Shown here one piece after another: positions 23,332-61,488 of a stretch of DNA of 64,000 nucleotides. Numbering within the stretch: position 1 is the stretch's first letter; the number at the start of each line of letters is the position of its first letter. A model generated the notes under the pieces. The model saw only the letters and a program-made list of their open reading frames with translations. It did not search any database and was not told the DNA's origin. The DNA is from Thermoanaerobaculia bacterium. GTDB lineage: Bacteria > Acidobacteriota > Thermoanaerobaculia > Multivoradales > UBA5704. Made by a program: the position numbers and the translations under genes. Location: contig DASZZP010000083.1 of the NCBI GenBank assembly GCA_035544875.1, positions 384,219 through 448,218 on the forward strand, read 5' to 3'.

Positions 23332-23413
<82 letters not shown>

Positions 23414-47858: not shown

Positions 47859-47939
47859 GAGGCCTCCACCGAGCAGAAGGCCGCCGGGCAGGTGCACGCC
47901 GGCGCGACCGCTCGAGCCCGGCAATCCTACTCGAAGGAA

Positions 47940-48100
47940 ATTGGTCCGCGCGCCAGGGGAGGGGGCGTCCCCTTCCCCCCCGGCGCCGCCGGGCAGGGAC
48001 CCGGCGGCTTCCGACAACCGGGAAGGGGACTCGCGGGGGTTGCGGGGGGCGATCCGATCGATGCTTCGAGTAGGCCTCGACCGCCACATCGCAGCAGCGT
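47940..48100 (+). repeat. GC-rich intergenic repeat element, copy 4
   Basis: gaaattggtccgcgcgccaggggagggggcgtccccttccccccc...gggttgcggggggcgatccgatcgatgcttcgagtaggcctcgaccgccacatcgcagcagcg. Same ends as copies 1 and 2 with a divergent middle. Confidence 0.85.
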
Positions 48101-48161
48101 TACATGCCGCGGGATCGGCACCGCCGGTGGGCGCTCGAACCTGTTCAGGGCAAAGCGGCTG

Positions 48162-49049
48162 CTAGCGGGTTGACGAGCTCGGCGGAGCCGGGGCCGCCGC
48201 CGCCACCGCGGCCGGCTGCGTCAGCTCGGCCGCGAGGACGAATCCGAGCCGGGCATAGATGCGCTGCACATAGCCGCGGGTCTCCGCGAACGGGGGCAGG
48301 CCGCCGAAGCGCTCGACCGCCCCTTCACCGGCGTTGTAAGCCGCCAGAACGCGCAGCGGATCCTCGCCGTAGCGGTCGACCAGCCAGCGCAGGTAGCGGC
48401 TGCCGGTCTCCAGGTTCTTGCGCGGGTTGAAGAGGTCCTTGCGCCGCCGCACGCCAAAGCGGCGCGCCGTGGCCGGGCGGACCTGCATCAGGCCGCAGGC
48501 GCCGCGGCGCGACACGGCGCGCGGGTTGAAACCCGACTCCACTCCGACCAGCGCCGCCACCAGCCGCGGATTCAAGGCGTGGCGGCTGGCGGTGCTGTAG
48601 ATCAGCTTGCCAAAAGGCGTGCGCGGCACGCCGAGCGCGCGATCGAACCCGAGCGGCGGCACCGGCTCGGGGCGCAACGCCAAGGGCGGCGGCGCCGTAA
48701 CCGGCGAGGGCAGCGCGCCGGCAGCCCTTGCTGCAGGCACTGAGGGCACTGTGGGCACGTCCGGCTCCGCTCGCTCCACGCCGGCGTCAGCCGCCGCCCA
48801 GGGAGAAAGCTCGGCCGCGGGCCCATCCTCCGCCGGCAGCGGACAGGTCCCAAGGGCTTGCGCGGAAGGGCTCGATCCGATCGCGCCGATCGCACCGATC
48901 GCAGTCGTGGCGGCGGGGAACTGCGAAGAGGCTGCGGCAGGTGGAACGGCCTCGGTGGCGCGCGCCGCAGCGCCGGCCGCCAGCCAGCCGAGCCCGAGCA
49001 AGCCGGCGGCCCTCATCAGACGGGAAGGGAACGACCGTTTCGAGCGCAA
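48162..49049 (-). CDS. lytic transglycosylase (SLT domain, family 1) with Ala/Pro-rich N-terminal region
   Basis: C-terminal SLT motifs ESGFNPRAVSRRGACGLMQV...AYNAG. N-terminal signal MRAAGLLGLGWLAAGAAARA (start may be 49016). Confidence 0.7.
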   Translation of the reverse strand: MRSKRSFPSRLMRAAGLLGLGWLAAGAAARATEAVPPAAASSQFPAATTAIGAIGAIGSSPSAQALGTCPLPAEDGPAAELSPWAAADAGVERAEPDVPTVPSVPAARAAGALPSPVTAPPPLALRPEPVPPLGFDRALGVPRTPFGKLIYSTASRHALNPRLVAALVGVESGFNPRAVSRRGACGLMQVRPATARRFGVRRRKDLFNPRKNLETGSRYLRWLVDRYGEDPLRVLAAYNAGEGAVERFGGLPPFAETRGYVQRIYARLGFVLAAELTQPAAVAAAAPAPPSSSTR

Positions 49050-49281
49050 GCGTCCCTCCGGTCAGGAGTTCACGACGAGCACCCGCTGCGTGCTGCCCGA
49101 CGGGTCAGTCTTCAGAGCCGAGACAAGACGGCGATACATACAAGACCGCGCTCCATCCTGTCAATCTGCCGCTCGACTTGCGCCGCGTTCTCCTTCCCGT
49201 TCCGCCTGCGGTCATGTAACGTTGTGGCGAGGGGGGGCCGCTGGCGGCGCGCGGCGCCCGGTCGTGTCGCGGGAGGTGTGC

Positions 49282-50331
49282 ATGAGGGCTCAACGGATCC
49301 ACCGCCGGCGCCAGCGTCGCGGCAGCCGCCGGCTCTGGCCGCTGCTGGGGGTCGCGGCGGTCGGAGTGCTGGCGATCGCGGTGGCGACCCGCTGGGAGCG
49401 CCGCGAACGGCGAAAGCTGCAGCCCGGACGACGCCGGACCCACCTTCCCGAAGAGCGGCAACCCTCACCGTCGGAGCCTGGTCGCGGGTTCGGCGGGATC
49501 CCGGAAGCGCCGGAGGTCCCGGGCACCGCGGAGTCGACCCAGGTCTGGATCGCCGGGCCGGCCGGCAACCTCTTCGTTCGCGATGGCGGCAGCGTGCCCG
49601 GGGCGCACGCCGGGCTGCGTCCGGTGCTCTTCGTCCACGGCCTGGCCGGCAACGGCGGGCAGTGGGCCTTGCAGCTCGACCACCTGCGCCGGCGGCGGCG
49701 GGCACTGGCGCTCGACCTGCGTGGTCACGGCGACTCGGACCCGGCCGACGACGGGTCGTACGACGTACCGGCCCTGGCCCGCGACGTCGCTGCCGTGGCC
49801 GATCATTTTGCCCTGCGCCGGCTGTTCCTGGTCGGGCACAGCCTGGGAGCCTCGGTGGCGATCGAGTATGCCGGCCTTCACCCCGAGCGGGTTGCCGGCC
49901 TGCTGCTGGTCGACCCCAATGGCGACCAGACGCGGCTGCCGCGCTCCGCGGTGGAGCCGTTCCTCGCGGCGCTCTCGGCCGACCCGCTCCACGAGCTCGC
50001 GAGCTACTACCGCCAGCTCCTGGTCGGGGGCGACCGCGACGCCGCGCAATGGGTGCTGGAGGATCTGCGGCTGACCGACGAAGAGGCCATCCTCCGGGCG
50101 GTCGAAGCCTCGGTTCGCTACTCCCCGCTGCCCGCGCTGGCGCGCTATCAGGGACCGCGGCTGGCGGTGATCAGCGACCTGAACGACCTCCCCTACAGCC
50201 TGCACAACCTGCTTCCCGCGCTGCCCGTCCAGCTCCTGCGCGGCACCGGTCACTGGCTGATGATGGACCGCCCCGAACCGTTCAACCACCTCCTCGAAGA
50301 GTTCCTTGCGGCAGCGGAAGGCGCCGGCTGA
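49282..50331 (+). CDS. alpha/beta-hydrolase fold protein with N-terminal membrane anchor
   Basis: GGGAGG SD then ATG 49282. TM segment LWPLLGVAAVGVLAIAVA. Nucleophile elbow GHSLGA, HGxxG-like LFVHGLAGNG, C-terminal His (GHWLMMDRPE). Confidence 0.75.
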   Translation: MRAQRIHRRRQRRGSRRLWPLLGVAAVGVLAIAVATRWERRERRKLQPGRRRTHLPEERQPSPSEPGRGFGGIPEAPEVPGTAESTQVWIAGPAGNLFVRDGGSVPGAHAGLRPVLFVHGLAGNGGQWALQLDHLRRRRRALALDLRGHGDSDPADDGSYDVPALARDVAAVADHFALRRLFLVGHSLGASVAIEYAGLHPERVAGLLLVDPNGDQTRLPRSAVEPFLAALSADPLHELASYYRQLLVGGDRDAAQWVLEDLRLTDEEAILRAVEASVRYSPLPALARYQGPRLAVISDLNDLPYSLHNLLPALPVQLLRGTGHWLMMDRPEPFNHLLEEFLAAAEGAG

Positions 50332-50438
50332 CCGCCGCGACCGGCGCAGGTCTGCGGAGCGCGCGCCCGCCGTGATCGCCGCCCGCCGGGTCAGGTCGTG
50401 CGGCAACGGCCGTAACATTTGCCGGGGAGCGCCGTTCC

Positions 50439-51032
50439 ATGAGTGAGGACGAAAGGAGGGTCGAGGCCGTGCAAGCAGCAGCCTACGACAGCACACCTTC
50501 GGCTAGGCCGCTCGCGGCGCTGGAGGCGGTATTCCAGAAGCACCATGCGGCGGTCTTCCGCGCCGCCTACCGGGTCACCGGCAATGCAATGGACGCCGAG
50601 GACGTGTTGCAGACCGTCTTCACCCGGCTGCTGCGCCGCGAGAGCGAGGGTGGCGAGCCGGACCTCTCCACGACCGCGGCCAGCTATCTGCACCGGGCGG
50701 CGGTCAATGCCGCCCTCGACCTGCTGCGCGCCCGCAAACGGGCGCGCGCCGTGGCGCTCGGCGAAGTCGAGGAGGCGCTGGTCGACGAGACCCATGTCGA
50801 CCCCGACCGCCGCAGCCGCAACCGCGAGCTCGCCCGGCGGCTGCGTGCCGCCCTCGCGCGGCTCTCACCCCGCCAGTCCGAAGTTTTCTCGCTGCGCTAT
50901 CTCGAAGGGCTGGGCAACCTGGAGATCGCCCGCTTGCTGGGCACTTCCCAGACCTCGATCGCCGTCATCCTGCATCGCGCGCGCCACCGGCTCCAGCGTG
51001 AGCTGGGCTCGCTTCAAGGAGAACCGTCATGA
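50439..51032 (+). CDS. ECF-type RNA polymerase sigma-70 family sigma factor
   Basis: Sigma-2 region (FRAAYRVTGNAMDAEDVLQTVFTRL) and sigma-4 HTH (LSPRQSEVFSLRYLEGLGNLEIARLLGTSQTSIAVILHRARHRL). Confidence 0.85.
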   Translation: MSEDERRVEAVQAAAYDSTPSARPLAALEAVFQKHHAAVFRAAYRVTGNAMDAEDVLQTVFTRLLRRESEGGEPDLSTTAASYLHRAAVNAALDLLRARKRARAVALGEVEEALVDETHVDPDRRSRNRELARRLRAALARLSPRQSEVFSLRYLEGLGNLEIARLLGTSQTSIAVILHRARHRLQRELGSLQGEPS

Positions 51033-53986
51033 GCCGCATCGACAACCACCACCAGAACGATCTCGCTCTCGCTGATCTTGGCCAGGCGGTCGAGGCAGTC
51101 ACCTCCGAGCCGATCGACGAGCGGAGGATCGAGGAAGCTGCGGCCCGTGTCTGGCAGCGGCTGGAGCAGGCGAGCACGAGCGGCGCGCTGGCCGGCACCC
51201 ACGGCCCCGACCCGGCCGATCTGGACACCGGCGCCGATCACGGTGCCGGCGCCCTGCAGAGCTGCGCCGATTTCCAGCGGCTCATCCCCGCCTATGTCGC
51301 GGGCGCCGCGGCGCTCGCGCCGGCGCGCGCCATGCTCCTCGAGGACCATACCCGGGGCTGCATCGCCTGCCGCCGCGCTCTGCTCGCAGCGCGGCAGAAA
51401 GTCGCCAAGGCAGCTGCCGCGGCGACCCCTGCTGCGGATGCCCCGGCTGCGATGGCTGCCGTGAACACTCCTGACGCCTTCCGCCGTTCGCCGTTCGCGC
51501 CGAGCCGCTGGCGCGGCGCTGGCCGCGCTTTCGCGGCGGCGGGACGGCCGGGCCGGGAGAGGGCGGCGCTGGCCGCCGCCGCCGTGCTGGCGATTGGACT
51601 CGGATTCGGCCTCTTCTGGCTTGCCGGCGGGACCCTGAATCAGGGGGCGACGATGGCCAGGGTCGAGCTGATCGAGGGGAATCTCTACCAGGTCTCCGCC
51701 CAGTCGAGCGTGCCGGTCGGCGCCGGCGACCTGGTGCGGGGTGACGAGGAGATCCGCACCGCCAAGAGCTCGCGCGCCGTCGTGCGCATGAATGACGGCT
51801 CGCGCATCGAGATGAGCGAGCGGGCCGGCCTGTCGCTCAGCGCCGGGCGCCGCGGCGCGACCATCCGCCTGGAGCGCGGCCGGATCATCGTGCAGGCCGC
51901 CAAGCAGCGCCTGCATCACCTCTACGTGGCGACCGCCGACTGTCTGGTTTCGGTCACCGGCACGATCTTCGCGGTCAACAACGGGACCAAGGGCTCGCGG
52001 GTGTCGGTGATCGAAGGCGAGGTGAGGGTGCGGCAGGCGCGGCTGGACAGCGTGCTGCATCCTGGCGAGCAGGTCTCGACCAGCGCCCGCGTCGCCGCCG
52101 TACCGGTCCACGACGAGGTCGCCTGGAGCCGTGACGCCGCCCGCTATGACCGGCTGCTCGGCGAGCTGACAGCCGTCTCGCGCGACATCGACCGGCAGGT
52201 CAAGGTCGCCGGGCTGCGCAACTCGACCCGTCTGCTCGATCTGGCGCCGGCCGGCTCGACCATCTACCTCGCGCTGCCCAACCTCGCCGCCAACCTCGGC
52301 GAGACCCAGCGCCTGCTCGAGCAGCGGCTGGCGGAGAGTCCGGTGCTGCGCCAGTGGTGGAGCGACTCGCTCGGCTCGTCGGCCAACGAGGCCCGCGTCC
52401 ACGAGGTCATTCAGCAGATCGGCGACCTGGGCCGCAACCTCGGCGACGAGATCGCGATCGCCGCCGGCTTCTCGACGCCTGCCGGCGAGCTCGGCTCCGC
52501 CCCATCCGAGGCCCCTGTCCTGATGGCCGAGGTCACCCAGGAGAGCTCCTTCCGCGCCACCCTCGAGCAGGAGCTGTCGCGGCTCCGCCAGCAGCCTGGA
52601 GCGATGCCGCTGCGCCTGATCGCCGACCCGGCGACCGCCGCGCCGGCCAATGGCAAGGAGATCTTGCTGTGGGTGGGTGGCGGCGTCTTCGTCGCCTCGC
52701 CGAGCCGCGAGCAGATCGCGCGCGTGGCGGCCAACCTCCAGCCCGGGGCGGTCAATCCGTTCACCGCGACTCCGTTCCACGGCCGTATCGCTCAGGAGTA
52801 CGCGGACGGCGCCGGCTGGCTGTTCTCCGCCGACCTCGCGCGCCTGGTGGCCCGTGAGCGCCTGGCGAGCGCCGGAGCCGCCGCCTCGCGCCAGGCGGGA
52901 GCTTCGCCCGAGTCGCCCGCGACGCCAACGGCAGATCGCGCGCGACGCCTGGCCGAAGCGCTCGGTGTCTTCGACGTCGAGAACTTCACCGTCGACCGCC
53001 GCGACGGTGAGAACGGCAAGACCGACACGCGCGCCGCCCTCAACTTCGACCAGCCGCGCCGCGGGCTGGCCGCCTGGCTCGCCGCGCCTGGACCGATGGG
53101 AAGCCTCGGGTTCTTCTCGCCCGACGCCAGCCTGGCCGTCTCCTTCGTCATCAAGAACCCGGTGACGTTGCTCGACGAGCTGCTCAGCCTGTCGCCGGAG
53201 TTTGCCGCCGAGCTGGCCAAGGTCGAGGCCGCGCACGGCTTCAATCTGCGCAACGACCTGGCGGTGCCGCTCGGTGGCGAGATCACGCTTGGCCTGGATG
53301 GCCCGGTGCTGCCAAACCCGTCGTGGAAGCTGGTGGCCGAGGTTTATGACCCGGTCAAGCTGCAGCAGACCTTCACCCGGGTGGTGCTGGAGGCCAACGA
53401 CTCGCTGCGCGCCGAGGGCAAGCCGCCGGTCACGCTGCAGCAGGAGCAGGAGGGCAGCCGTACCTACTACTCCCTGGTCTCCAACCAGCCGGCCTTCGAG
53501 GTCCACTATGTGTTCGCCAACGGCTATCTGGTGGCGGCACCCAGCCGGGCGCTGCTCGATACGGCGCTCGCCCAGCATGACTCCGGCGTCACCCTCGCCT
53601 CGTCGTCGAAGTTCCGCGAGCTGCTGGGTCAGGACGGCCAGATCAACGTCTCGGCCCTCTTCTATCAGAACCTGACCGGCATGGCGGCGGTGACCGGCGC
53701 CCTCGCGCCGCTGGCGGGAGCGGGGTCGATCAACGGCGGCGGCGGCGCGGCTGCCGATCGCACCAGGGCGGCACTGGCGCGGCCGTCACTGGGCAACCTG
53801 GTGCTGGGCCAGAGCCCGTCGCTGCTCTACGCCTACGCCGAGGACAATCGCATCCTCTTCGGCGGCCGCGGCAACACGGGCCCGCTGGGAGTCAACCTGG
53901 CGACCATGGCCGGGTTCGGCGGTATCCTGGGCAGCATGCACCAGGTGCACGGCGAAGCGCTGGCGCAGAAGGAGTCGGGCCGCTGA
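51029..53986 (+). CDS. membrane anti-sigma factor (zinc-finger ZAS motif + FecR-like domain) with ~700-aa periplasmic extension
   Basis: Start overlaps the sigma gene stop (ATGA). Motif [12 protein letters not shown] (H-x3-C-x2-C). Single [22 protein letters not shown]. FecR-like region ([30 protein letters not shown]...[24 protein letters not shown]). Long C-terminal domain of unknown function. Confidence 0.75.
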
Positions 53987-54005
53987 GCGGCCCGCCGCCC
54001 ATCCC

Positions 54006-55082
54006 GTGCCATCCGCTTCCCCAACGAGCGCCGCGACCCCGGCGCCCCAGGCGCTGTCGGAGCCCGGGGCGCCGGAGGCGCGGGACGCGCCGGCGTCACC
54101 CGGCGCCCGGAGCGCGCCAGCATGTCCCGCCTCTGTCGTCGAGCTCGATCAGCTTTCGGTCCGCTTCGGGCGCCGCCCGATCCTGCATCAGCTGACCGCC
54201 AAGCTGGGCGGCCGCTGCATCGGCCTGCTTGGTCCCAACGGCGCCGGCAAGACGACGCTGCTTCACACCCTGCTCGGGTTCCATCCGCCGGCCTCGGGCA
54301 CCGCCCGCATCTTCGGCCTCGATATTTGCGGTGGGCGTAGCGAAGCGCGGGCGATCCGCGCGCTGATGGGCTACATGCCGGAAACCGACTCCTTCGTCAC
54401 CGGCATGAGCGGCGTGCGCTTCGTGCGGCTGATGGCCGAGCTCTCGGGGCTGCCGGCCGAGCAGGCCATGGAGCGCGCCCACGAGGCGTTGTTCTACGTC
54501 GGGCTGGGAGAGGCGCGCTACCGGCCGATCGAGAGCTACTCGCTGGGCATGAAGCAGCTCGCCAAGCTCGCCCAGTCGCTGGTCCACGGCCCCCGGCTGC
54601 TCTTGCTCGACGAGCCGACCAACGGGCTCGATCCCCCGGCGCGCCAGCGCATGCTGGAGCTGATCCGCGATATCCGCGACGACGGCGAGGTGCACGTGAT
54701 CCTCTCCTCGCACCTGTTGCGCGACGTCGAGGAGTGCTGCGAGGAGGTGCTGGTCCTGAAGGGCGGGCAGGTGGCGGTCTACGCCAACCTGGAAGAGGAG
54801 CGGCGCGCCAACCGGCGCTTCCTCGATCTCGAGGTGCGCGGCGCCCGCGGGGCCGACGGCAGCGCCGCGTTCGCCGCCGCCGCCGCGGCGCTGGGCTGCG
54901 AATGCGCCGCCGGCACCCGGCAGCGCCTGAAGCTGGTGCTGCCTGAGGGGGTGGAGGTGCGCGACCTCTACCGCCTTGCCGCCGAGCGGCAGCTGCAGAT
55001 CCGCCGGCTCGACTTCAAGCGCGATTCACTCGAGGACATCTTCCTCAAGGCGATGGAGGGCGGCAACCATGGCGGTGTATGA
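54006..55082 (+). CDS. ABC transporter ATP-binding protein (ABC-2 exporter type), start uncertain
   Basis: Walker [12 protein letters not shown], signature [15 protein letters not shown], Walker [13 protein letters not shown]-terminal 40 aa are Ala/Pro-rich and may be non-coding. Confidence 0.75.
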
Positions 55083-55938
55083 GCACAGCTACCGGCGCTA
55101 CGAAGGTCCCCTGACGCCGCCGCGCTGGCGCTTCCTCATCCTGCCGCGCTACGCCGTCGCGGAGGTGCTGCGCGGCCGGCTGTTCATCGCCCTCTTCACA
55201 CTCTGCTTCGCCCCGCCCTTCGCGGGGCTCATCATGATCTATCTGCACCACAACCTTTCCGCCTTGAAGCTGCTCAACCTGCCGCTCGACCGGCTGCAAG
55301 AGGCGCTGCCCATCGACAGCCTCTTCTTCGAGCGCGGCCTGGCGCTCCAGGGCTTCATGGCCTTCCTGATCGCGCTCGCCGTGGGGCCGGCGCTGATCTC
55401 TCCCGATCTGCGCAACAACGGCCTGCCGCTCTACTTCTCACGCCCCTTCTCGCGCGCCGAGTACGTGCTGGGCAAGATGTCGGTGCTGGTCGTCCTGATG
55501 TCGCTGGTCACCTGGGTGCCGGGTCTGCTGCTCTTCTTCCTGGAGGCCAACCTCGAGGGCGCGGAATGGCTCGCCGCCCACTGGCGGATCGCCGGCGCGC
55601 TGATCGCCGCCAGCGCCGCCTGGATCGCCCTCCTGTCGCTGGTGGTGCTAGCGGTGTCGGCGTGGGTGAAGTGGAAGCCGGTGGCGAGGATCGTCATCCT
55701 GATCCTCTACTTCGTCCTGGCCGGTTTCGGCCTGGCCGCCGACAAAGTGCTCGGCACCTGGTGGGGTGTCATGTTCAGCATGCAGCAGGTCTGGAGCAGG
55801 CTGCGCGCGGCGCTGTTCGACGTGCCGGCCGAGAATGACCTGCCGGTTGCGGCGGCGATGGCGGCGCTGGCCGCCGGCTGCCTGATCTGCCTCTGGCTGC
55901 TGTCGCGCCGGGTGCGGGCCTATGAAGTGGTGCGGTGA
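55069..55938 (+). CDS. ABC-2 family transporter permease
   Basis: ATG overlaps the ATPase stop by 14 bp. Six predicted TM helices and no conserved catalytic motifs (call by context and topology). Confidence 0.65.
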
Positions 55939-55982
55939 TCAGTTGAACGCGGTAATCAGCGCATGAGCGCGGTGACCAGAGC

Positions 55983-56936
55983 ATGAGCGCGAACGAAGAC
56001 CGGATCGTCTTCCAGGACGTCTCCAAGTTCTACGGCGAGGTGCTCGGCGTCAACCGGGTGAACCTGTCGGTGCCGCCGGGCATCACCAGCCTGGTGGGCC
56101 CCAACGGCTCGGGCAAGACGACGCTGATGAACCTGATGGTCGGGCTGCTGCGGCCGACCCGCGGCACCGTCCGCGTGCTGGGTATCCCCCCCGAGCGCGC
56201 CGAGGAGCTCTTCCGGGTGGTCGGCTACGCCACCCAGTATGATTCCTTTCCGCGCGGCTTGACCGGCTATCAGCTCATCTACTTGCTGTTGCTGGTGCAC
56301 GGCCGCGAGCGCCGCGAAGCCGAGGCGCTCGCCTGGCGGGCGCTCGAGCGGGTCGGGTTGGTCGACGCCGCCGGACGCAAGGTCGCCGCCTACAGCAAGG
56401 GGATGCGCCAGCGGGTCAAGCTCGCCCAGGCGATCGCCCACCAGCCTTCCGTGCTGGTCCTCGACGAGCCGCTCAACGGCCTCGACCCGATGGCGCGCGC
56501 CGAGCTGATCGCGCTGCTGCGCGAGCTGGCCGGCGCCGGGCTGCACATCGTGGTGTCGAGCCACATCCTGCACGAGGTGGACCTCATCTCGGACCAGGTG
56601 GTGCTGATCAATGGCGGCTACGTGGTGGCCGAAGGCGAGATCGGCGGAGTGCGCGACGAGATGGAGGAGGAGCATCCGATCCAGGTCCTGATCCGCTGCG
56701 ACCGCCCGGGGCTGCTGGCCGCGCGGGTCTTCGAGCAGGACCACGCGGTCGAAGCGCGCCTCGCCGAGGACGGGCGCGGCCTGCTGGTGCGCACGCGCGA
56801 CGCCGACCGCTTCTATCTGCTCCTCAACCGGGTGGTGCTCGAAGACGGCCTGACCGTCGAGGCGGTGGCGCCGGCCGACGCCGATGTCCAGGCGGTCTAC
56901 GGCTACCTGATCGGCGCCCCGGGAGGCAAGTCATGA
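55983..56936 (+). CDS. ABC transporter ATP-binding protein (second ABC-2 pair)
   Basis: Walker [12 protein letters not shown], signature [15 protein letters not shown], Walker [14 protein letters not shown]-loop SSHIL. Confidence 0.85.
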
Positions 56937-57814
56937 GCGCCGCCGCGCCGCTTGCCGCCGCACGCCAGGACCCGCTGCGCCCGGAGCCCGGCAAGCTGCC
57001 ATGGCGGACCTGGCGGCGCCAGCTGCTCGCCGTCGTGCGGCTCGAGCTGCGCAAGAGCTTCCTCGGCCGGCGCGCCGTGGGCCTCTACCTGTTGGCCCTG
57101 GCGCCGCCGCTGATCCTCGCGCTGCGCGCCCTCAAGCCAGGGGGGGTCTCCGACCCCAACGACCTCGGGGAGGCGACGCAGATCTTTGCCGGTATCTTCC
57201 AGGGCTTCATCGTGCGGCTCGTCATCTTCCTCGCCTGTGTCTTCATCTTCGGCGGCCTGGTGCGCCGCGAGGTGCTCGACCGCAGCCTCCATTTCTATTT
57301 CCTCACCCCGCTGCGGCGGGAGCTGCTCGCGCTGGGCAAGTACATGACCGGTCTGCTGGTCGCGGCGGTGCTCTTCGCCGGCTCGACGCTGGCCTCCTTC
57401 GCATTCGCCTACCTGCCCTACTCCGGCGGCAGCGTCGAGCGCTACCTGCTGCACGGCCCCGGCCTGGCCCAGCTCGGCTCCTACCTCCTGGTCACTCTCC
57501 TCGCCTGCGGCGGCTACGGCGCCGTCTTCTTCGCCGCCGCCTTCTTCGTGCGCAGCCCGGCCCTGCCCGCCCTCGCCATGTTCGGCTGGGAGTCCATCCA
57601 CTTCCTCCTGCCGCCGCTGCTTAAGCAGCTGTCGGTGATCCATTACCTCCAGTCTCTCTGCCCCGTCCCCATCTCCGAGGGTCCCTTCGCCCTGCTCTCC
57701 GATGCGCCCTCGCGCTGGGTCGCCATCGGCGGCCTCCTGGCCCTCATCGTCGCCCTCCTCGTGGTGTCCGCCTTCCGCATCCGCCGGATGGAAATCGCCT
57801 ACGAAGGCGAGTAG
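56933..57814 (+). CDS. ABC-2 family transporter permease (second pair)
   Basis: ATGA overlap with the preceding ATPase. Multi-TM hydrophobic protein. Confidence 0.65.
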
Positions 57815-57854
57815 CCCGCCGGTGAGCCGATGCACAGAAGCCGGCCTGGTCGAC

Positions 57855-58010
57855 TCCTTGACCCCGGACCAGCTCGACCGCATCGGCGTCCATCCGGCCA
57901 TGGGACCGCTGCCCATCCGGCTCTGGCTCGAGTTCTTCCTGCTCCACGAAGCCCACCACCTCTACACCATCCTGCAGCGCCTCCGCATCGCCTCCGCACC
58001 GGCGTCGTAG
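57855..58010 (+). pseudogene. C-terminal remnant of a DinB/YfiT-like (DinB_2) metal-dependent hydrolase gene
   Basis: SLTPDQLDRIGVHPAMGPLPIRLWLEFFLLHEAHHLYTILQRL resembles the conserved C-terminal helix (H-E-x-H-H-x-x-Q-I) of DinB-family proteins. No intact N-terminal part, since the upstream frame runs into the permease gene. Confidence 0.3.
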
Positions 58011-58026
58011 GCGCTTCCCGGCCCCC

Positions 58027-58764
58027 CTATTCCCCGGGGCAGAGCTGGAAATGGTTGGCGAAGTCGGCGATGGCCTTGGGGTCGGCCGGGGTGCCGGTCA
58101 GGTCCACCTGGTCGAGCGGCTGCGCGGGCGCCGGGTCGGGCACGAACCAGATGCCGAAGCGCAGGTGGCGATCGGGGCATTCGCAGAGCAGGAAGGCCGA
58201 GATGGCCTGGTGGCGCCGGCTGTCGACGTTGAAGTCGCCGCGGCTGGCGGTGTAGCCGATGTGGGCGCCGCCGGCGTCGAGGTTGCCGTCGCGGATGTGC
58301 TCGCCGCGTCCCTGGCGCCAACCGGAGTAGCGCATCCAGGGGACCTCGGAGTCGGTCCCTTCGAGGATGCGGCGCTTGCGCTCCTCGGAGGTGGGGATGC
58401 GCCCCAGGCGCATGCTCATGAAGAGGAAGCCGCGCTCGCGGAACTTGCCGAAGCGGCCGGCGGCCGGCTCCTCGTCGGAGAGCATCGCCATGTCCATGAT
58501 GAAGGGGATCGACAGCGAGCCGAGCGGATGGTACCCGGCGGGGAGCTCGCGATAGGGGAGGATCTCGCGGGTCCTTTGCTCGCGCACCCGCGGCTCGGTG
58601 AATCCCTGCTTGAAGCTCTTCCTCGTCTGCTGGCGCAACATCCAGATGAAGCCGATCCCGGCGAGGATCGCCAGGACCAGCAGGATGGCGCAACCGCAGC
58701 CGACGTACATCCAGGGAGAGGTCTTGCGTTTGCTGGCAGGAGGTGCTCCGGCGTTGGGATCCAT
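58027..58764 (-). CDS. hypothetical membrane-anchored protein (245 aa), translationally coupled to argS
   Basis: ATG 58762-58764 lies 1 nt after the argS stop. N-terminal TM helix (WMYVGCGCAILLVLAILAGIGFIWML) then a soluble domain. No family recognised. Confidence 0.55.
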   Translation of the reverse strand: MDPNAGAPPASKRKTSPWMYVGCGCAILLVLAILAGIGFIWMLRQQTRKSFKQGFTEPRVREQRTREILPYRELPAGYHPLGSLSIPFIMDMAMLSDEEPAAGRFGKFRERGFLFMSMRLGRIPTSEERKRRILEGTDSEVPWMRYSGWRQGRGEHIRDGNLDAGGAHIGYTASRGDFNVDSRRHQAISAFLLCECPDRHLRFGIWFVPDPAPAQPLDQVDLTGTPADPKAIADFANHFQLCPGE

Positions 58765-58765
58765 T

Positions 58766-60799
58766 TCACATCCTTTCCGGCCAGGAGATGCCCAGCAGCT
58801 CGCCCAGGCTCTCCAGGCCGCGGCGGAAGACTTGCATCGTGGCCAGCCGCGCGGCGCGAACGCGCGGGTCCTTCTCTTGCAGGATCGGGTGGCGGTGATA
58901 GAAGGCATTGAACCGCTGCGCGATCTCGAGCGCATGGCGCGCGACCAGCGACAGCTCGAGCGACTCGGTGGCTTTCTCCACCAGCTCGCCAATCTGGGCC
59001 ACCGCCAGGATCAGGTCCCAAGAGTCGTCGCCGAAGCGCTCGTGCTCCAGGGCCTCGATCTCGGCCGGGCCGACACTAGGCGCCAACCCCTCTTCCGCCA
59101 GGCGGCGGCCGATGTTCTTGGCCCGCACCAGCGAGTACTGCAGATAGGGTCCGGACTCGCCCTCGAAGTTGAGCGCCTCGTCGAAATCGAAGGCGATGAT
59201 CCGGTGGGTGGTGGCCTTGACCATGAAGAAGCGGAGAGCCGCCGCCGCGATCTCGTGGGCCAGCGCCTCGAGCTCTCCGTCCGGGAGCGCGCGGTTGCGT
59301 CTGGCGACCTCCTCGCGGCTCTTGGCCTCGAGCTGGTCCAGGAGGTCGTCCGCCTTGACGCCGATCCCCTTGCGGCCTGACATTTCGAGAGTCTTGGCCG
59401 GCCGGCCGCCGGCGCCACCAGGCAGATCGCCCGCGCTCTCGCTGTCCGCGGCGGCGCCGTCGCTGTCGTCGCTGTTGGCGCTGTCTGCGTTGTCTGCGTC
59501 GGGGGCGGGCAGGTAGCCGAGCAGCCGGGCGGTCGCCGGCGAGAGCGCGACCATCTCGTAGGCGAAGTGGATGGAGCGCTCCGCCTCGGCCGTGTGGCCG
59601 AGCGCTTCGAGGCCGGCGCGCACGATCTTCTGCAGGTAGCTCTGGCGGGCGTCGATGACGTTGATCACCCGATGGGCGCCGCCAAACCGCGGGTGCTCGC
59701 CGGCGCCGTTCTGACAGGTCTCCCAGACCTTCTCCTGCGGCCAGAAGCAATAGCCGAAGTCACGCCCCAGCAGGCCGAACTTCCAGAGCTGGTAAGCGAT
59801 GTCCTTGCCGACGTAGGTGACCGTGCCATCCGAGCGGACGATCACCTTGTCAGGGTCCTCGAGACCCGCGAACTCCTCGCTGCGGGAGAGCGGCATGACC
59901 CAGCAGCCGGCGTTCTTGCCCTCCTTCTCGAGGTGAATGGCGCCGCTCTCTTTTAGCCGCGCGAAGGCGCTGGCGAAGAAGTCCAGGTGCAGGATGTCGC
60001 ACTCGTGGGTCAGCAGGTCGTAGGCGATGCCGAGGCGGCGCATCGTCGCCAGGTGCCGCGCCACCACCCGGCGGGCGACCACCCGGCCCATCTCGGCGCG
60101 CTCGCCGCGCCCGGTCTCGAGCTGGTGCAGGGTCTCGCGGCGGAGCCGCTGGCGCTCCGGATCGTCCTGGTACCAGCGCCCGACCTGGCTGTAGAGGTCC
60201 CAGCACAGAAAATCGAACGGCTCCGGGCTCGCCTCCACCTCGGCCAGGGTCGCCCCGCGCAGGTCGATGAAGCCGACCACCACGTCGGCGAGCTGCACGC
60301 CGGTGTCGTCGATGTAGTTCTGCACCTCGACCGCCAGGCCCAGGCTGCGGGCGCAGCGCGCCAGGACGTCGCCGAGCACCGCGTTGCGCAGGTGGCCGAT
60401 GTGCGCCGCCTTGTTGGGGTTGATGTTGGTGTGCTCGATGACCAGCTTGCCGGGGCGCGCGGGGCGGGTCTCCCCCCCAGCCGGTGCCGCGAGCAGGGCC
60501 GCGGCCAGGGCCCGCCGGTCGAGAAACAGGTTGAGGTAGCCGGCCCCCTGCACCTCGACCGCGCGCACCGCCGCCGGCAGCTCCCGCCGCAGGGCGTCGC
60601 GTAGCTCGTCCGCAATGGCCCGCGGGCTGCGTCGCAGCAGGCGGGCGAGCTGCATGGCGGCGGGCGACGCGAGATCTCCCAGCTCGCGGCGCGGCGGCAC
60701 TTCGAGCACCGGCCGGTGCTCGATCCCGAAGCGCACGCCGATCAGCCTCGCGATCTCGCCGGCGAGCCCATTCTTGAGCCGCGTCCAATCGGTCGACAT
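58766..60799 (-). CDS. argS: arginine--tRNA ligase
   Basis: HIGH motif PNKAAHIGHLRN, class-I Rossmann core, anticodon-binding DALR-like C-terminus. Contains an acidic ~45-aa low-complexity insertion (DSANSDDSDGAAADSESAGDLPGGAGGRPA). Confidence 0.9.
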   Translation of the reverse strand: MSTDWTRLKNGLAGEIARLIGVRFGIEHRPVLEVPPRRELGDLASPAAMQLARLLRRSPRAIADELRDALRRELPAAVRAVEVQGAGYLNLFLDRRALAAALLAAPAGGETRPARPGKLVIEHTNINPNKAAHIGHLRNAVLGDVLARCARSLGLAVEVQNYIDDTGVQLADVVVGFIDLRGATLAEVEASPEPFDFLCWDLYSQVGRWYQDDPERQRLRRETLHQLETGRGERAEMGRVVARRVVARHLATMRRLGIAYDLLTHECDILHLDFFASAFARLKESGAIHLEKEGKNAGCWVMPLSRSEEFAGLEDPDKVIVRSDGTVTYVGKDIAYQLWKFGLLGRDFGYCFWPQEKVWETCQNGAGEHPRFGGAHRVINVIDARQSYLQKIVRAGLEALGHTAEAERSIHFAYEMVALSPATARLLGYLPAPDADNADSANSDDSDGAAADSESAGDLPGGAGGRPAKTLEMSGRKGIGVKADDLLDQLEAKSREEVARRNRALPDGELEALAHEIAAAALRFFMVKATTHRIIAFDFDEALNFEGESGPYLQYSLVRAKNIGRRLAEEGLAPSVGPAEIEALEHERFGDDSWDLILAVAQIGELVEKATESLELSLVARHALEIAQRFNAFYHRHPILQEKDPRVRAARLATMQVFRRGLESLGELLGISWPERM

Positions 60800-60915
60800 G
60801 GCGGCGAGGAGTCTACACGAGCCCGGCCGGGCTGGCGGTCTCGGCTGGCTCTGGCCGCGGCGCGAGAAAAGCTGCCCGGGGCTTGCTAAAATCGGGCCGG
60901 GAGCAGTGGGATGAG

Positions 60916-61488
60916 ATGACCGAGAACAAGCTGACCGAGAAGCCGCTGTCCGACAACCGGATAACCTTGACGCTCGACAGCACCCAGCTGGAGCTGGTCG
61001 AAGGTGACATCACCAGCCTGGAGGTGGATGCCATCGTCAACCCGGCCAACGAGCGCCTGGAGCTCGGCGCTGGGGTGGCCGGGGCGATTCGCGAGCGCGG
61101 GGGGCCGTCGATCCAGGAGGAGTGCCGGCGGATCGGACGCACCCCGGTCGGCACCGCGGTGATGACCGGGGCAGGCAACCTTCCCGCCCGCCAGGTCATC
61201 CACGCGGTGGGACCCCGTTTCGGCGAGGGAGACGAGGACAAGAAGCTCGCCTCGGCGGTGCGCGCCGCGCTCGCGCTGGCCGACCGGCGCGGACTCAAGT
61301 CGATCGCCATCCCGGCCATCTCGACCGGCGTCTACGGCTTCCCCATCGACCGCGCCGCCCGCGTCATGCTGACCGAGATCCACCGTTACCTGCAGGGCGG
61401 CACCAAGCTCGACCGGGTGGTCATCTGCCTGCGCGGCGAAGAAGCCTTCTCGACCTTCCGCCGCGAGCTGCGCCGCGGCTTCCGCTAG
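60916..61488 (+). CDS. macro-domain protein (O-acetyl-ADP-ribose deacetylase, YmdB/MacroD-like)
   Basis: LVEGDITSLEVDAIVNPAN...GAGVAGAI...HAVGP...IAIPAISTGVYGFP. In-frame ATGs at 60916; alternative TTG 60883. Confidence 0.8.
   Translation: MTENKLTEKPLSDNRITLTLDSTQLELVEGDITSLEVDAIVNPANERLELGAGVAGAIRERGGPSIQEECRRIGRTPVGTAVMTGAGNLPARQVIHAVGPRFGEGDEDKKLASAVRAALALADRRGLKSIAIPAISTGVYGFPIDRAARVMLTEIHRYLQGGTKLDRVVICLRGEEAFSTFRRELRRGFR

What the first reader, a model, noticed from the sequence alone, without database searches (positions are those of the whole stretch)
50439..57814. ECF sigma / giant zinc-anti-sigma factor followed by two ABC-2 exporter pairs
The sigma gene overlaps (ATGA) an anti-sigma gene encoding HxxxCxxC + TM + FecR-like + ~700-aa periplasmic domain. 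This is far larger than RsrA/ChrR-type anti-sigmas. Immediately downstream are two consecutive ATPase+ABC-2 permease pairs with overlapping junctions (55069/55082; 56933/56936), likely one operon. A plausible undescribed envelope-stress or export module: a periplasmic signal sensed by the long domain releases the ECF sigma, which drives the exporters.
Basis: partly seen in the sequence, partly recalled or inferred. Interest (0 to 1): 0.55.

Follow-up and report, generated by a model that had tools for sequence, protein, structure and literature searches.

The report
Conserved acidobacterial sigma/anti-sigma–ABC exporter module
This is a real six-gene block, kept intact in hundreds of Acidobacteriota species, in which a self-activating stress sigma factor, a very large membrane sensor that holds it in check, and a four-protein ABC export pump sit together; nobody has characterised it, but each part belongs to a known kind.

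Summary
Six co-directional genes are present: ECF sigma, a 985-aa anti-sigma, and two ATPase/ABC-2 permease pairs. One correction: the sigma gene most likely starts at GTG 50469, not ATG 50439.

The block is found in the same order in every one of about 70 related loci that have enough sequence. These loci are labelled Thermoanaerobaculia, Holophagales, Blastocatellia/Pyrinomonadaceae and Terriglobia. No flanking gene is conserved beyond subclades.

A canonical ECF promoter (TGTAAC-N16-CGTT; window 50412-50436) lies directly upstream of sigma in 73 of the 74 related loci scanned, and in the window itself. No copy lies before the ABC genes, which start 19 nt after the anti-sigma stop. In this organism the exporter is therefore most likely co-transcribed.

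The anti-sigma is a hybrid with three parts:
- a zinc-finger (C-x27-HxxxCxxC) anti-sigma domain;
- a FecR domain that keeps the Gly-Thr self-cleavage site;
- a roughly 620-aa DUF3352-like periplasmic domain with no solved structural relative.

It lacks FecR's own N- and C-terminal domains, and there is no TonB-dependent transducer nearby.

Best reading: an autoregulated envelope-sensing switch that induces a dedicated type-V ABC exporter. Signal and substrate are unknown. In Blastocatellia, hairpins and inserted genes separate the two halves, so regulatory coupling there is unproven. I class it as a new variant of a known kind, of moderate interest.

The parts
50412..50436 (+). ECF-type autoregulatory promoter: -35 GTAACA (50412-50417), 16-nt spacer, -10 CGTT (50433-50436). 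Transcription start inferred near 50442.
   Evidence: This is the only GTAAC-N15-17-CGT match in the 64-kb window. The motif TGT-TAA-Y-AA-N14-CGTT sits at the orthologous position in 73 of the 74 related loci scanned (the remaining locus has a spacer one base longer) and in the window itself. TAA and CGT are invariant.
50453..50459 (+). Shine-Dalgarno sequence AAGGAGG, 9 nt before the GTG start of sigma.
   Evidence: AAGGAG(G) followed by GTGCAAGC is conserved across classes, whereas ATG 50439 is not (TAG in L011, ATT in L037/L047).
50469..51032 (+). ECF (group 4) sigma-70 factor, 187 aa from GTG 50469. The ORF and public annotation start at ATG 50439 (197 aa).
   Evidence: Pfam Sigma70_r2 and Sigma70_r4_2; TIGR02937 at 102.7 bits against a cut-off of 42.9. 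Closest solved relatives are mycobacterial SigE and SigL and B. subtilis SigW. Annotated as HVT60251.1.
51029..53986 (+). Single-pass membrane anti-sigma / sigma regulator, 985 aa. The start overlaps the sigma stop (ATGA).
   Evidence: More than 1697 homologs. 569 or more genome loci. AF2 model with pLDDT 76. Annotated only as 'FecR domain-containing protein' HVT60252.1.
51029..51181 (+). Conserved N-terminal two-helix extension (residues ~1-51; R40 V41 W42 invariant) that precedes the zinc-finger domain. Function unknown.
   Evidence: Alignments A1/A2. Helices 7-25 and 31-51 in the model.
51263..51373 (+). ZAS-type anti-sigma domain core: C79-x27-H107-x3-C111-x2-C114.
   Evidence: All four residues are invariant in 69 of 69 homologs. 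zf-HC2 scores 18-21 bits in the window protein (below the 22.2 cut-off) but hits 18 of 20 homologs, with a best E-value of 1e-10.
51563..51637 (+). Transmembrane helix (residues ~179-203). In most homologs it is preceded by an RR or RxR motif; the window has RER.
   Evidence: Helix 179-199 in the model. RR occurs in 45 of 69 and RxR in 14 of 69 homologs.
51650..52078 (+). Periplasmic FecR beta-domain (residues ~208-350; Pfam match 241-333).
   Evidence: Pfam FecR at 55.2 bits against a cut-off of 24. pLDDT above 90. Foldseek matches to the PupR C-terminal cell-surface signalling domain (6ovk, E = 8e-7) and to the Parabacteroides anti-sigma 4m0h.
51959..51964 (+). Gly311-Thr312, the candidate self-cleavage site. 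It aligns with FecR Gly181-Thr182.
   Evidence: hhalign of A1 against E. coli FecR (probability 47%, E = 2e-4). GT in 68 of 69 homologs and GS in 1. The FecR cleavage site is taken from PMC12036975.
52121..53983 (+). DUF3352-like alpha/beta periplasmic domain (residues ~365-985), the presumed sensor or docking domain.
   Evidence: The Pfam DUF3352 match is weak in the window (21-22 bits against 26.8) but hits 18 of 20 homologs, best 7e-10. 1226 clusters at 50% identity were found. The full-length proteins among the top 150 carry the domain behind about 320-350 N-terminal residues. The shorter entries that were read look 5'-truncated. AF2 model has pLDDT 84 and pTM 0.77. No solved-structure match: Foldseek E >= 0.03, TM <= 0.36.
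54006..55082 (+). ABC ATPase 1 (358 aa; GTG start 19 nt after the anti-sigma stop; 44-aa Pro/Ala-rich N-terminal extension).
   Evidence: ABC_tran, plus a weak DrrA1-3_C match. Best solved relatives are ABCA7/ABCA3/ABCA1 NBD2 and NosF. 64-78% identical across classes.
55069..55938 (+). ABC-2 type permease 1 (289 aa). A 14-nt overlap with ATPase 1 is conserved across classes.
   Evidence: Weak ABC2_membrane_5/_2 hits. More than 2153 homologs, named 'ABC-2 type transport system permease' or 'hypothetical'. The -14 junction occurs in most loci.
55983..56936 (+). ABC ATPase 2 (317 aa), 39% identical to ATPase 1.
56933..57814 (+). ABC-2 type permease 2 (293 aa). ATGA overlap with ATPase 2. Not detectably similar to permease 1.
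   Evidence: Weak ABC2_membrane_3 hit. BLASTP against permease 1 gives E = 0.05. Conserved in all loci that reach this far.

Best explanation
This is a self-contained six-gene module inherited across several classes of Acidobacteriota.

Shown:
- An ECF sigma factor is transcribed from a promoter of its own type (TGTAAC-N16-CGTT).
- It is translationally coupled to a single-pass membrane regulator.
- In this organism and its clade, the regulator gene is followed without a gap or terminator by four tightly overlapping genes. These encode two different ATPases and two different ABC-2 permeases.

Inferred mechanism:
1. In the resting state, the cytoplasmic zinc-finger anti-sigma domain sequesters the sigma factor.
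2. The periplasmic part behaves like FecR-type regulators. It self-cleaves at Gly311-Thr312, and the C-terminal fragment (the rest of the FecR domain plus the 620-aa DUF3352-like domain) stays bound and shields the membrane stub.
3. An envelope or periplasmic cue read by the DUF3352-like domain displaces that fragment.
4. Site-1 and site-2 proteases then degrade the stub and release the sigma factor.
5. The free sigma factor amplifies its own operon and, by read-through, raises the level of the exporter. The exporter is probably one hetero-oligomeric type-V (ABCA/NosFY/DrrAB-like) pump.
6. The pump removes or relocates the compound or envelope component that caused the signal.

Substrate and signal are unknown. 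The very high conservation (ATPases 64-81% identical between classes) suggests a core envelope function rather than a niche resistance trait.
For: - Gene order: the six genes occur in the same order in all related loci with enough DNA, across four class-level labels.
- Module boundaries: no seventh conserved gene was found. The best flanking family occurs in only 14 of about 70 loci.
- Promoter: the ECF promoter is conserved at the orthologous site in 73 of the 74 related loci scanned and in the window. It is followed by a conserved Shine-Dalgarno sequence and GTG start.
- Operon structure: the promoter motif occurs only once in the window. No terminator-like site lies on the + strand inside 50000-58400. 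The 14-nt ATPase1/permease1 overlap is conserved across classes. The median distance from the anti-sigma stop to the ATPase core is 78 nt (maximum 164) in the Thermoanaerobaculia-type clade.
- Anti-sigma domain: C79, H107, C111 and C114 are invariant in 69 of 69 homologs.
- FecR domain: supported by Pfam and by fold.
- Self-cleavage site: G311-T312 aligns with the FecR Gly181-Thr182 site and is GT in 68 of 69 homologs.
- Export route: an RR or RxR motif lies before the transmembrane helix in 59 of 69 homologs, as in Tat-inserted FecR.
- Sensor domain: in the full-length proteins among the best 150 representatives, the C-terminal domain sits behind an anti-sigma-sized N-terminal part.
- Precedent: the autoregulated ECF operon sigY-yxlCDEFG also carries its anti-sigma gene (PMC4105308). 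From my own knowledge, YxlF/YxlG are an ABC ATPase and an ABC-2 permease.
Against: - No ECF-type promoter lies directly in front of the ABC genes in the window or its clade. Control of the exporter rests only on spacing and the absence of a terminator.
- In Blastocatellia the two halves are separated by a median of 357 nt (up to 2.4 kb). 35 of 45 loci have strong hairpins after the anti-sigma gene, and some have unrelated inserted genes. Simple read-through cannot be the general rule.
- The hhalign alignment to FecR has only 47% probability.
- The window protein has RER rather than RR next to the membrane helix.
- The DUF3352-like fold gave no structural clue to a ligand.
- No expression, cleavage or transport data exist.
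Confidence: 0.5

Rival explanations
1. Transporter-coupled sensing. The DUF3352-like domain does not bind a free ligand. Instead it docks on the periplasmic face of the ABC-2 exporter. This would parallel FecR's C-terminal domain docking on FecA, or BceS reading BceAB activity. Sigma activity would then report the load on the exporter. The exporter would be both sensor partner and (possibly) target.
For: - Adjacency of the regulator and the four ABC genes is kept in every locus, even where hairpins or inserted genes break co-transcription. This points to a functional or physical link beyond shared transcription.
- FecR-family regulators are known to signal through a cognate transporter encoded next door.
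- In the full-length proteins among the best 150 representatives, the C-terminal domain is always attached to this anti-sigma.
Against: - No interaction evidence exists.
- The permeases have only short periplasmic loops, so there is little surface to dock on.
- The FecR_C domain that contacts FecA is absent.
Confidence: 0.25
2. Cytoplasmic thiol/redox or metal sensing through the zinc-finger anti-sigma domain, as in RsrA. The large periplasmic part would serve another role, such as anchoring or scaffolding, rather than receiving the signal.
For: - The C-x27-HxxxCxxC ligand set is invariant.
- The closest solved sigma relatives (Mtb SigE, SigL) pair with ZAS anti-sigmas (plus my own knowledge of RseA/RslA).
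Against: - From established knowledge of RslA, ChrR and RsiW, most membrane-bound ZAS proteins use zinc structurally.
- About 780 highly conserved periplasmic residues, including a self-cleavage motif, are hard to explain without a signalling role.
Confidence: 0.1
3. Neighbours, not a regulon. The ABC genes are expressed from their own promoter, which could be housekeeping or belong to another ECF sigma. They would only share a pathway or history with the sigma/anti-sigma pair.
For: - The sigma's own motif does not occur before atp1 in any locus.
- Strong hairpins follow the anti-sigma gene in 35 of 45 Blastocatellia loci, 8 of them with T-rich tails.
- Unrelated genes are inserted in some loci.
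- A differently worded ECF-like motif (GGAAC/TGAAC/TTAAAC-N15-18-CGTA) occurs upstream of atp1 in 19 of 44 Blastocatellia loci, against at most 11 in shuffles.
Against: - In the window the gap is 19 nt, with no promoter-like or terminator-like site.
- Strict co-occurrence across classes is not expected for unrelated neighbours.
- The GGAAC...CGTA motif has variable spacing, partly lies in coding sequence, and relatedness among loci was not controlled.
- That motif also shares the AA(C/T)...CGT core with the sigma's own promoter, so it could be recognised by the same sigma.
Confidence: 0.12

Closest known systems
FecI/FecR/FecA-type cell-surface signalling (E. coli Fec, Pseudomonas FoxR/PupR)
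   Same: - ECF sigma plus a single-pass regulator with a periplasmic FecR domain (Pfam 55 bits; fold match to PupR 6ovk).
- The Gly-Thr self-cleavage dipeptide is conserved at the aligned position.
- An RR-type motif precedes the membrane helix in most homologs.
- A transporter is encoded next door.
   Different: - E. coli FecR is DUF4880 + FecR + FecR_C. Here the N-terminus is a zf-HC2/ZAS domain and the C-terminus is a 620-aa DUF3352-like domain.
- There is no TonB-dependent transducer.
- The neighbouring transporter is an inner-membrane ABC-2 exporter rather than an outer-membrane importer.
- The sigma's nearest solved or named relatives in these searches are SigE-, SigL- and SigW-like. FecI does not appear among the 25 best NCBIfam families listed.
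Zinc-binding anti-sigma factors (ZAS: RsrA, RslA, ChrR, RsiW)
   Same: HxxxCxxC plus an upstream Cys, all invariant. The gene is co-transcribed and overlaps its ECF sigma gene.
   Different: - Five to ten times larger.
- Has an extra conserved 50-aa N-terminal extension.
- The periplasmic part is FecR plus DUF3352-like, which is not a feature of the ZAS proteins named here, to my knowledge.
- The window protein scores just under the Pfam cut-off.
Bacillus subtilis sigY-yxlCDEFG operon
   Same: An autoregulated ECF operon that carries the sigma gene and its anti-sigma gene (PMC4105308). From my own knowledge it also carries an ABC ATPase plus ABC-2 permease pair (YxlF/YxlG). The operon logic is the same.
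   Different: - Small anti-sigma proteins.
- One ATPase/permease pair rather than two.
- Found in Firmicutes.
- No FecR or DUF3352-like domain.
- Sequence relationship was not tested here.
Type V (ABC-2) exporters: ABCA lipid exporters, NosFY, DrrAB, LanFEG-type immunity pumps
   Same: The ATPases match ABCA7/3/1 NBD2 (E = 1e-46 to 1e-43) and NosF (E = 3e-34). They also match the drrA, GldA and lantibiotic-protection NCBIfam models below their cut-offs. The permeases are about 290 aa.
   Different: - No NCBIfam model specific to a named ABC system is reached by either ATPase, and neither permease matches any NCBIfam model.
- The permeases have no solved sequence relative.
- Two distinct ATPases plus two unrelated permeases are strictly co-conserved.
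- No auxiliary periplasmic gene such as NosD or GldG is present, unless the anti-sigma's C-terminal domain plays that role.
BceRS-BceAB flux-sensing modules
   Same: A possible working analogy: a regulator that reads the activity of the transporter it controls.
   Different: That system uses a two-component system and a FtsX/MacB-type permease. No evidence here supports such an interaction. This is an analogy only.

Membership tests
ECF (group 4) sigma-70 factors | Only the sigma-2 and sigma-4 domains are present. | tested here: met
   Sigma70_r2 (46 bits) and Sigma70_r4_2 (54 bits), both above their cut-offs. TIGR02937 at 102.7 against 42.9.
ECF (group 4) sigma-70 factors | Autoregulated promoter with an AAC-containing -35 element and a CGT-containing -10 element about 16 nt apart. 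| tested here: met
   GTAACA-N15-CGTT at 50412-50436. Conserved in 73 of the 74 related loci scanned. Use of this promoter by this sigma was not tested experimentally.
ECF (group 4) sigma-70 factors | A cognate anti-sigma gene is co-transcribed immediately downstream. | tested here: met
   ATGA overlap at 51029/51032. This junction is conserved.
A named ECF group in the Casas-Pastor 2021 classification | Assignment by the group-specific HMM and matching genomic context. | not testable with these tools
   The group HMMs and supplementary tables are not held. The main text mentions no Acidobacteria group with a FecR/zinc-finger anti-sigma and an ABC exporter.
ZAS / zf-HC2 anti-sigma domain | H-x3-C-x2-C motif plus an upstream Cys or His ligand. 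| tested here: met
   C79, H107, C111 and C114 are invariant in 69 of 69 homologs.
ZAS / zf-HC2 anti-sigma domain | Pfam PF13490 scores above its gathering threshold. | tested here: inconclusive
   The window protein scores 18.4-21.5 bits against 22.2. 18 of 20 homologs match, with a best E-value of 1.2e-10.
ZAS / zf-HC2 anti-sigma domain | Zinc binding and sigma binding. | not testable with these tools
   Needs biochemistry or complex modelling.
FecR-type sigma regulators (cell-surface signalling) | Periplasmic FecR domain (PF04773). | tested here: met
   55.2 bits against 24. Foldseek match to PupR 6ovk at E = 8e-7.
FecR-type sigma regulators (cell-surface signalling) | Gly-Thr self-cleavage site inside the FecR domain. 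| tested here: met
   G311-T312 aligns with FecR G181-T182. GT in 68 of 69 homologs. This shows sequence only; cleavage itself was not tested.
FecR-type sigma regulators (cell-surface signalling) | N-terminal DUF4880 sigma-binding domain. | tested here: not met
   E. coli FecR has it at 40 bits. The window N-terminus matches only zf-HC2, even at E <= 1.
FecR-type sigma regulators (cell-surface signalling) | C-terminal FecR_C domain that contacts the transducer. | tested here: not met
   Absent. Residues 365-985 match only DUF3352 (weakly) and MLTR_LBD (weaker still, E = 0.006, below cut-off).
FecR-type sigma regulators (cell-surface signalling) | Adjacent TonB-dependent transducer gene. | tested here: not met
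   The conserved block holds no such gene, and no flanking gene is conserved.
DUF3352 (PF11832) | Score above the Pfam gathering threshold over most of the 536-position model. | tested here: inconclusive
   21-22 bits against 26.8, covering only model positions 86-241. 18 of 20 homologs match at E < 1e-3, best 6.7e-10.
ABC-2 / type V ABC exporters | ABC ATPase of the DrrA/NosF/ABCA lineage with intact Walker A, Walker B and H-loop motifs. | tested here: met
   ABC_tran at 86 and 98 bits. Both proteins show GPNG(A/S)GKT, LDEP and SSH. PDB best hits are ABCA7 and NosF.
ABC-2 / type V ABC exporters | Permease matches an ABC2_membrane family above threshold. | tested here: inconclusive
   20-22 bits against cut-offs of 25-32. 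Homologs carry precomputed PF12679/PF13346 hits.
Named ABC systems (DrrAB, GldAFG, NosDFY, Lan immunity) | The NCBIfam model specific to the named system is reached. | tested here: not met
   Every one of these named models is far below its cut-off. For example, drrA scores 186 and 177 against 312, and GldA scores 147 against 403.
SigY-YxlCDEFG-type operon | Orthology of the sigma, anti-sigma and ABC parts to the B. subtilis proteins. | not tested
   Only the operon logic was compared, from the literature.

The most novel reading that the evidence does not exclude
A FecR-type, self-cleaving sigma regulator has been rewired in Acidobacteriota. It would no longer signal from an outer-membrane TonB-dependent transducer but from an inner-membrane ABC-2 exporter. 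Its DUF3352-like domain, a fold with no solved relative, would read the exporter's substrate or activity. This would give an export-coupled ECF signalling pathway found across several classes of the phylum. It would govern a core envelope process such as lipid, lipoprotein or surface-polymer export.
Probability: 0.2. Interest if true: 0.7.

Novelty: new variant of a known kind. Interest (0 to 1): 0.5.

Why it matters
Acidobacteriota are among the most abundant soil bacteria, yet almost nothing is known about how they sense and maintain their envelope.

This module was found as one copy in each of the 80 genomes examined. It occurs in at least 569 species-level genomes and is under strong purifying selection.

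It combines parts of two well-studied signalling systems, ZAS anti-sigmas and FecR self-cleaving regulators, with an uncharacterised 620-aa domain and a two-pair ABC-2 exporter.

If the regulator does use FecR-style self-cleavage without a TonB-dependent partner, the known scope of that mechanism would widen. It would also give a function to the DUF3352 family.

The sharply defined promoter (TGTAAC-N16-CGTT) makes the regulon directly testable in genomes and metatranscriptomes.

Tried and rejected
2. Profile search of the whole family against PDB sequences. Only PupR appeared, at E = 0.07. The permeases have no solved relative.
3. Search for the sigma's promoter in front of atp1 and elsewhere. 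There were no hits before atp1, one hit in the window, and the PWM scan gave no second positive site. One of the five shuffled windows scored as high as the window's own site. That site's support is therefore its orthologous position, not its score.
4. De novo bipartite motif search upstream of atp1. It found GAAC...CGT in 19 of 44 Blastocatellia loci. I kept this only as a lead because spacing varies from 15 to 18, some sites are in coding sequence, and the loci are related.
5. Search for a seventh conserved gene in the 3.5-kb flanks. None was found.
6. Stand-alone DUF3352-like proteins. The short hits read are 5'-truncated fragments.
7. Literature. There were no papers on DUF3352 or on Thermoanaerobaculia sigma factors. 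The supplementary tables of the ECF classification are not held.
8. Rfam and tRNA scans. Nothing lies in the region.
9. I considered and rejected calling this a member of the FecIRA cell-surface signalling family, because three defining features are absent.

Full report
**What is there**

The window is about 70% G+C. It carries six co-directional ORFs at the stated coordinates.
- The first is a group-4 (ECF) sigma factor. It has Sigma70_r2 and r4_2, and TIGR02937 scores 102.7 bits against a cut-off of 42.9.
- The second (985 aa) overlaps the first by ATGA. It carries a weak zf-HC2 match (residues 79-115), a solid FecR domain (241-333; 55 bits against 24) and a weak DUF3352 match (734-887).
- Then come an ABC ATPase, a 289-aa permease overlapping it by 14 nt, a second ATPase, and a 293-aa permease overlapping that by ATGA.

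The ATPases are 39% identical to each other. The permeases are not detectably alike. The ATPases' best solved relatives are the second nucleotide-binding domains of ABCA7/ABCA3/ABCA1, and NosF. That places them in the ABC-2 (type V) exporter lineage. None of the NCBIfam models for named ABC systems (DrrA, GldA, NosF-type, lantibiotic protection) is reached, and the permeases match no NCBIfam model.

The source is a public Thermoanaerobaculia MAG. The six products are HVT60251-HVT60256 and carry only generic names.

**Is it more than chance?**

Yes.
- The anti-sigma has more than 1697 homologs of similar length.
- A scan of one genome per species found at least 569 loci. The best 80 are labelled Thermoanaerobaculia, Holophagales, Pyrinomonadaceae/Blastocatellia and one Terriglobia.
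- tblastn of the six window proteins on these loci shows sigma, anti-sigma, ATPase1, permease1, ATPase2 and permease2 in that order, on one strand, in every locus with enough downstream DNA.
- ATPases are 64-81% identical, permeases 41-73%, and the anti-sigma 37-53%.
- Independent gene calls on a 7-Mb contig show the same block between unrelated neighbours.
- Clustering of all ORFs within 3.5 kb on either side found no family present in more than 14 of about 70 loci.

The unit is therefore exactly these six genes. Each of the 80 loci comes from a different genome.

**The promoter and the true sigma start**

I lined up the DNA upstream of sigma in all loci. This revealed a bipartite motif, TGT-TAA-(C/T/G)-AA, then 14 nt, then CGTT. 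TAA and CGT are invariant. It occurs in 73 of the 74 related loci scanned. The remaining locus has a spacer one base longer. The window has the motif as well.
- In the window it is GTAACA at 50412-50417 and CGTT at 50433-50436. This is the classic ECF pattern: an AAC-containing -35, a 16-nt spacer and a CGT-containing -10.
- It is the only such site in the 64 kb.
It is not conserved: TAG in L011, ATT in L037 and L047.
- What is conserved is AAGGAG(G) followed 6-9 nt later by GTGCAAGC. In the window these are the Shine-Dalgarno sequence at 50453-50459 and GTG at 50469.

The sigma factor is therefore most likely 187 aa, with a leader of about 27 nt. The conserved promoter is strong comparative evidence for positive autoregulation. 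Recognition by this sigma is inferred.

**Are the exporter genes under that promoter?**

In the window, GTG 54006 is the only in-frame start before the conserved ATPase core. It lies 19 nt after the anti-sigma stop. No sigma-70-like promoter was found in 50000-58400. The only terminator-like site there lies on the opposite strand.

In the Thermoanaerobaculia-type clade, the distance from the anti-sigma stop to the ATPase core has a median of 78 nt and a maximum of 164 nt. The four ABC genes overlap or nearly touch, and the 14-nt ATPase1/permease1 overlap is kept across classes. For this organism, one operon is the best reading.

It is not universal.
- In Blastocatellia the same distance has a median of 357 nt and reaches 2.4 kb.
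- Some loci have unrelated inserted genes there: a DoxX-like protein plus a beta-lactamase-like protein, an ankyrin protein, or a lipoprotein.
- Some subclades have small same-strand membrane ORFs in that position.
- 35 of 45 loci have a strong hairpin just after the anti-sigma gene, 8 of them with a T-rich tail.
- The sigma's own motif never occurs before atp1.
- A differently worded ECF-like motif (GGAAC/TGAAC-N15-18-CGTA) is over-represented there: 19 of 44 loci against at most 11 in shuffles.
- One Pyrinomonadaceae subclade shows a terminator-like hairpin followed by TT(T/G)AAAC-N16/17-CGTAG about 55 nt before atp1.

The last two observations are leads only. Spacing varies, some sites are in coding sequence, and relatedness among loci was not controlled.

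**The regulator is a hybrid**

*Cytoplasmic part.*
- A conserved two-helix extension (residues 7-51; R40 V41 W42 invariant) comes first.
- It is followed by a canonical ZAS ligand set, C79-x27-H107-x3-C111-x2-C114, invariant in 69 of 69 homologs.
- zf-HC2 matches 18 of 20 family members, with a best E-value of 1e-10. The window protein falls just under the cut-off.

*Membrane and FecR domain.*
- One membrane helix spans about residues 179-203.
- The following beta-rich domain is modelled with pLDDT above 90. It matches the PupR cell-surface-signalling domain (6ovk, E = 8e-7) and a Parabacteroides anti-sigma (4m0h).
- E. coli FecR self-cleaves between Gly181 and Thr182. The fragments stay associated, are exported by Tat with the help of an RR motif, and separate on signalling, which exposes the stub to further proteolysis (PMC12036975).
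- A profile alignment of the family to E. coli FecR puts G311-T312 on Gly181-Thr182 (probability only 47%, E = 2e-4). That dipeptide is GT in 68 of 69 homologs and GS in one.
- An RR (45 of 69) or RxR (14 of 69) motif precedes the membrane helix. The window protein has RER.

*Differences from E. coli FecR.*
- E. coli FecR is DUF4880 + FecR + FecR_C. The window protein has neither DUF4880 nor FecR_C.
- No TonB-dependent transducer is part of the block.
- It therefore works partly like FecR but is not a member of the FecIRA cell-surface-signalling family.

**The C-terminal domain**

- Residues about 365-985 form an alpha/beta domain, modelled confidently on its own (pLDDT 84, pTM 0.77).
- It has many invariant motifs: WW 443-444, DGAG 593-596, RRG 677-679, DGPxLPxPxW 757-766, EVYD 771-774, YAYAE 934-938.
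- It is a divergent DUF3352.
- An exhaustive HMMER search found 1226 clusters at 50% identity. Among the best 150, the full-length proteins (about 800-1000 aa) carry the domain behind about 320-350 N-terminal residues. The shorter entries that I read are 5'-truncated fragments. I saw no evidence of a stand-alone form.
- Foldseek found no solved structure resembling it (best E = 0.03, TM at most 0.36).
- No paper in the library mentions DUF3352.
- Its ligand or partner is unknown.

**Mechanism I commit to (confidence about 0.5)**

1. At rest, the zinc-finger domain holds the sigma factor at the membrane.
2. The periplasmic part has self-cleaved at G311/T312, and the large C-terminal fragment shields the stub.
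3. An envelope cue acting on the DUF3352-like domain releases that fragment.
4. Site-1 and site-2 proteolysis frees the sigma factor.
5. Sigma transcribes its own operon from TGTAAC-N16-CGTT and, in this clade by read-through, the four exporter genes.
6. The two ATPase/permease pairs are always co-conserved and translationally coupled. They probably form one asymmetric type-V pump, which then exports the offending or needed compound.

Shown: gene content, conservation, the promoter motif and its position, junction geometry, domain architecture, and the conserved ligand set and GT site.

Inferred: use of the promoter by this sigma, cleavage, regulated proteolysis, the signal, the substrate, and the stoichiometry of the pump.

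**Rivals**

- Transporter-coupled sensing (0.25). This is favoured by adjacency surviving broken co-transcription, but there is no interaction evidence.
- Redox or metal sensing through the ZAS motif (0.1).
- Mere neighbours with independent promoters (0.12).

**Comparison with what is known**

The nearest precedent in operon logic is B. subtilis sigY-yxlCDEFG. It is an autoregulated ECF operon that carries its anti-sigma gene. From my own knowledge it also carries an ABC-2 ATPase/permease pair.

The nearest in sensing chemistry is FecR/FoxR. The nearest in sigma binding are the ZAS anti-sigmas.

The ECF re-classification paper mentions, in its main text, no Acidobacteria group with this anti-sigma and an ABC exporter. 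Its supplementary tables could not be read. I cannot exclude that the sigma already sits in a numbered but uncharacterised ECF group.

**Verdict**

This is a real, sharply bounded, widely conserved and uncharacterised module built from known kinds of parts in a new combination. It is a new variant of a known kind. Interest is 0.5: a specialist would find the ZAS-FecR-DUF3352 chimera and its strict pairing with a double ABC-2 exporter noteworthy but not paradigm-breaking.

Noticed in passing
window 50439-50471: The annotated sigma start (ATG 50439, HVT60251.1, 197 aa) sits 2 nt after the -10 element and is not conserved. The conserved Shine-Dalgarno sequence and GTG point to a start at 50469 (187 aa). 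Gene callers make the same choice in related contigs, for example L082 8417.
   Followed up: yes
L032-L080, between the anti-sigma gene and atp1 (e.g. L064, L066, L043, L068, L076, L037): Most Blastocatellia loci carry a long, often perfect palindrome (-30 to -74 kcal/mol) right after the anti-sigma stop. A few of these have T-rich tails. They may be terminators, attenuators or repeat elements. They are absent as clear intergenic features in the Thermoanaerobaculia-type loci.
   Followed up: partly
L041, L049, L056, L072, L078, L080, about 55 nt upstream of atp1: One Pyrinomonadaceae subclade has a terminator-like hairpin (GCGGGCAGAGGA...TCCTCTGCCCGC plus a T run). It is followed by TT(T/G)AAAC-N16/17-CGTAG, a candidate internal ECF-type promoter for the ABC genes.
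   Followed up: partly
L053 3866-6035; L076 10901-11899; L034 10807-11217; L059 5286-5717; L074 10747-11013: Lineage-specific genes are inserted between the anti-sigma gene and atp1. They include a DoxX-like membrane protein plus a beta-lactamase-like protein, an ankyrin-repeat protein, and a lipoprotein. In two subclades there are small same-strand membrane ORFs (143 aa and 88 aa) that abut atp1.
   Followed up: partly
window 51029-51181 (anti-sigma residues 1-51): A conserved two-helix N-terminal extension (invariant R40 V41 W42) precedes the zinc-finger domain. ZAS domains usually start at the N-terminus. Its role is unknown.
   Followed up: no
window 54006-54137: ATPase 1 has a 44-aa Pro/Ala-rich N-terminal extension that relatives lack (L082 ATPase is 315 aa). 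The DNA encoding it can form a -37 kcal/mol GC-rich hairpin. No alternative in-frame start exists.
   Followed up: partly
window 45672-50331: The upstream neighbours are an S9 prolyl-oligopeptidase family peptidase (- strand), an SLT lytic transglycosylase (- strand) and an alpha/beta hydrolase (+ strand, ending at 50331). The hydrolase is syntenic with the module in 14 loci, the window included. The transglycosylase is syntenic in about 8. All of these are close relatives of the window.
   Followed up: partly
window 58027-58992 (-) and 58766-60799 (-): An ORF with no Pfam match and a predicted membrane segment overlaps the 3' end of argS by more than 200 nt as listed, so its real start is probably further downstream. 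It lies next to argS in L010 and L011 too.
   Followed up: no
window 60883-61488 (+); window 23337-23413 (-): A macro-domain protein (135 bits). Separately, a tRNA-Met (CAT) gene, which is the only Rfam or ARAGORN hit in the 64 kb.
   Followed up: no
L082 7675-8312: In a 7-Mb relative, a PIN/MazE toxin-antitoxin pair lies directly upstream of the module and lepA lies directly downstream. This illustrates that the flanks are unrelated between lineages.
   Followed up: no
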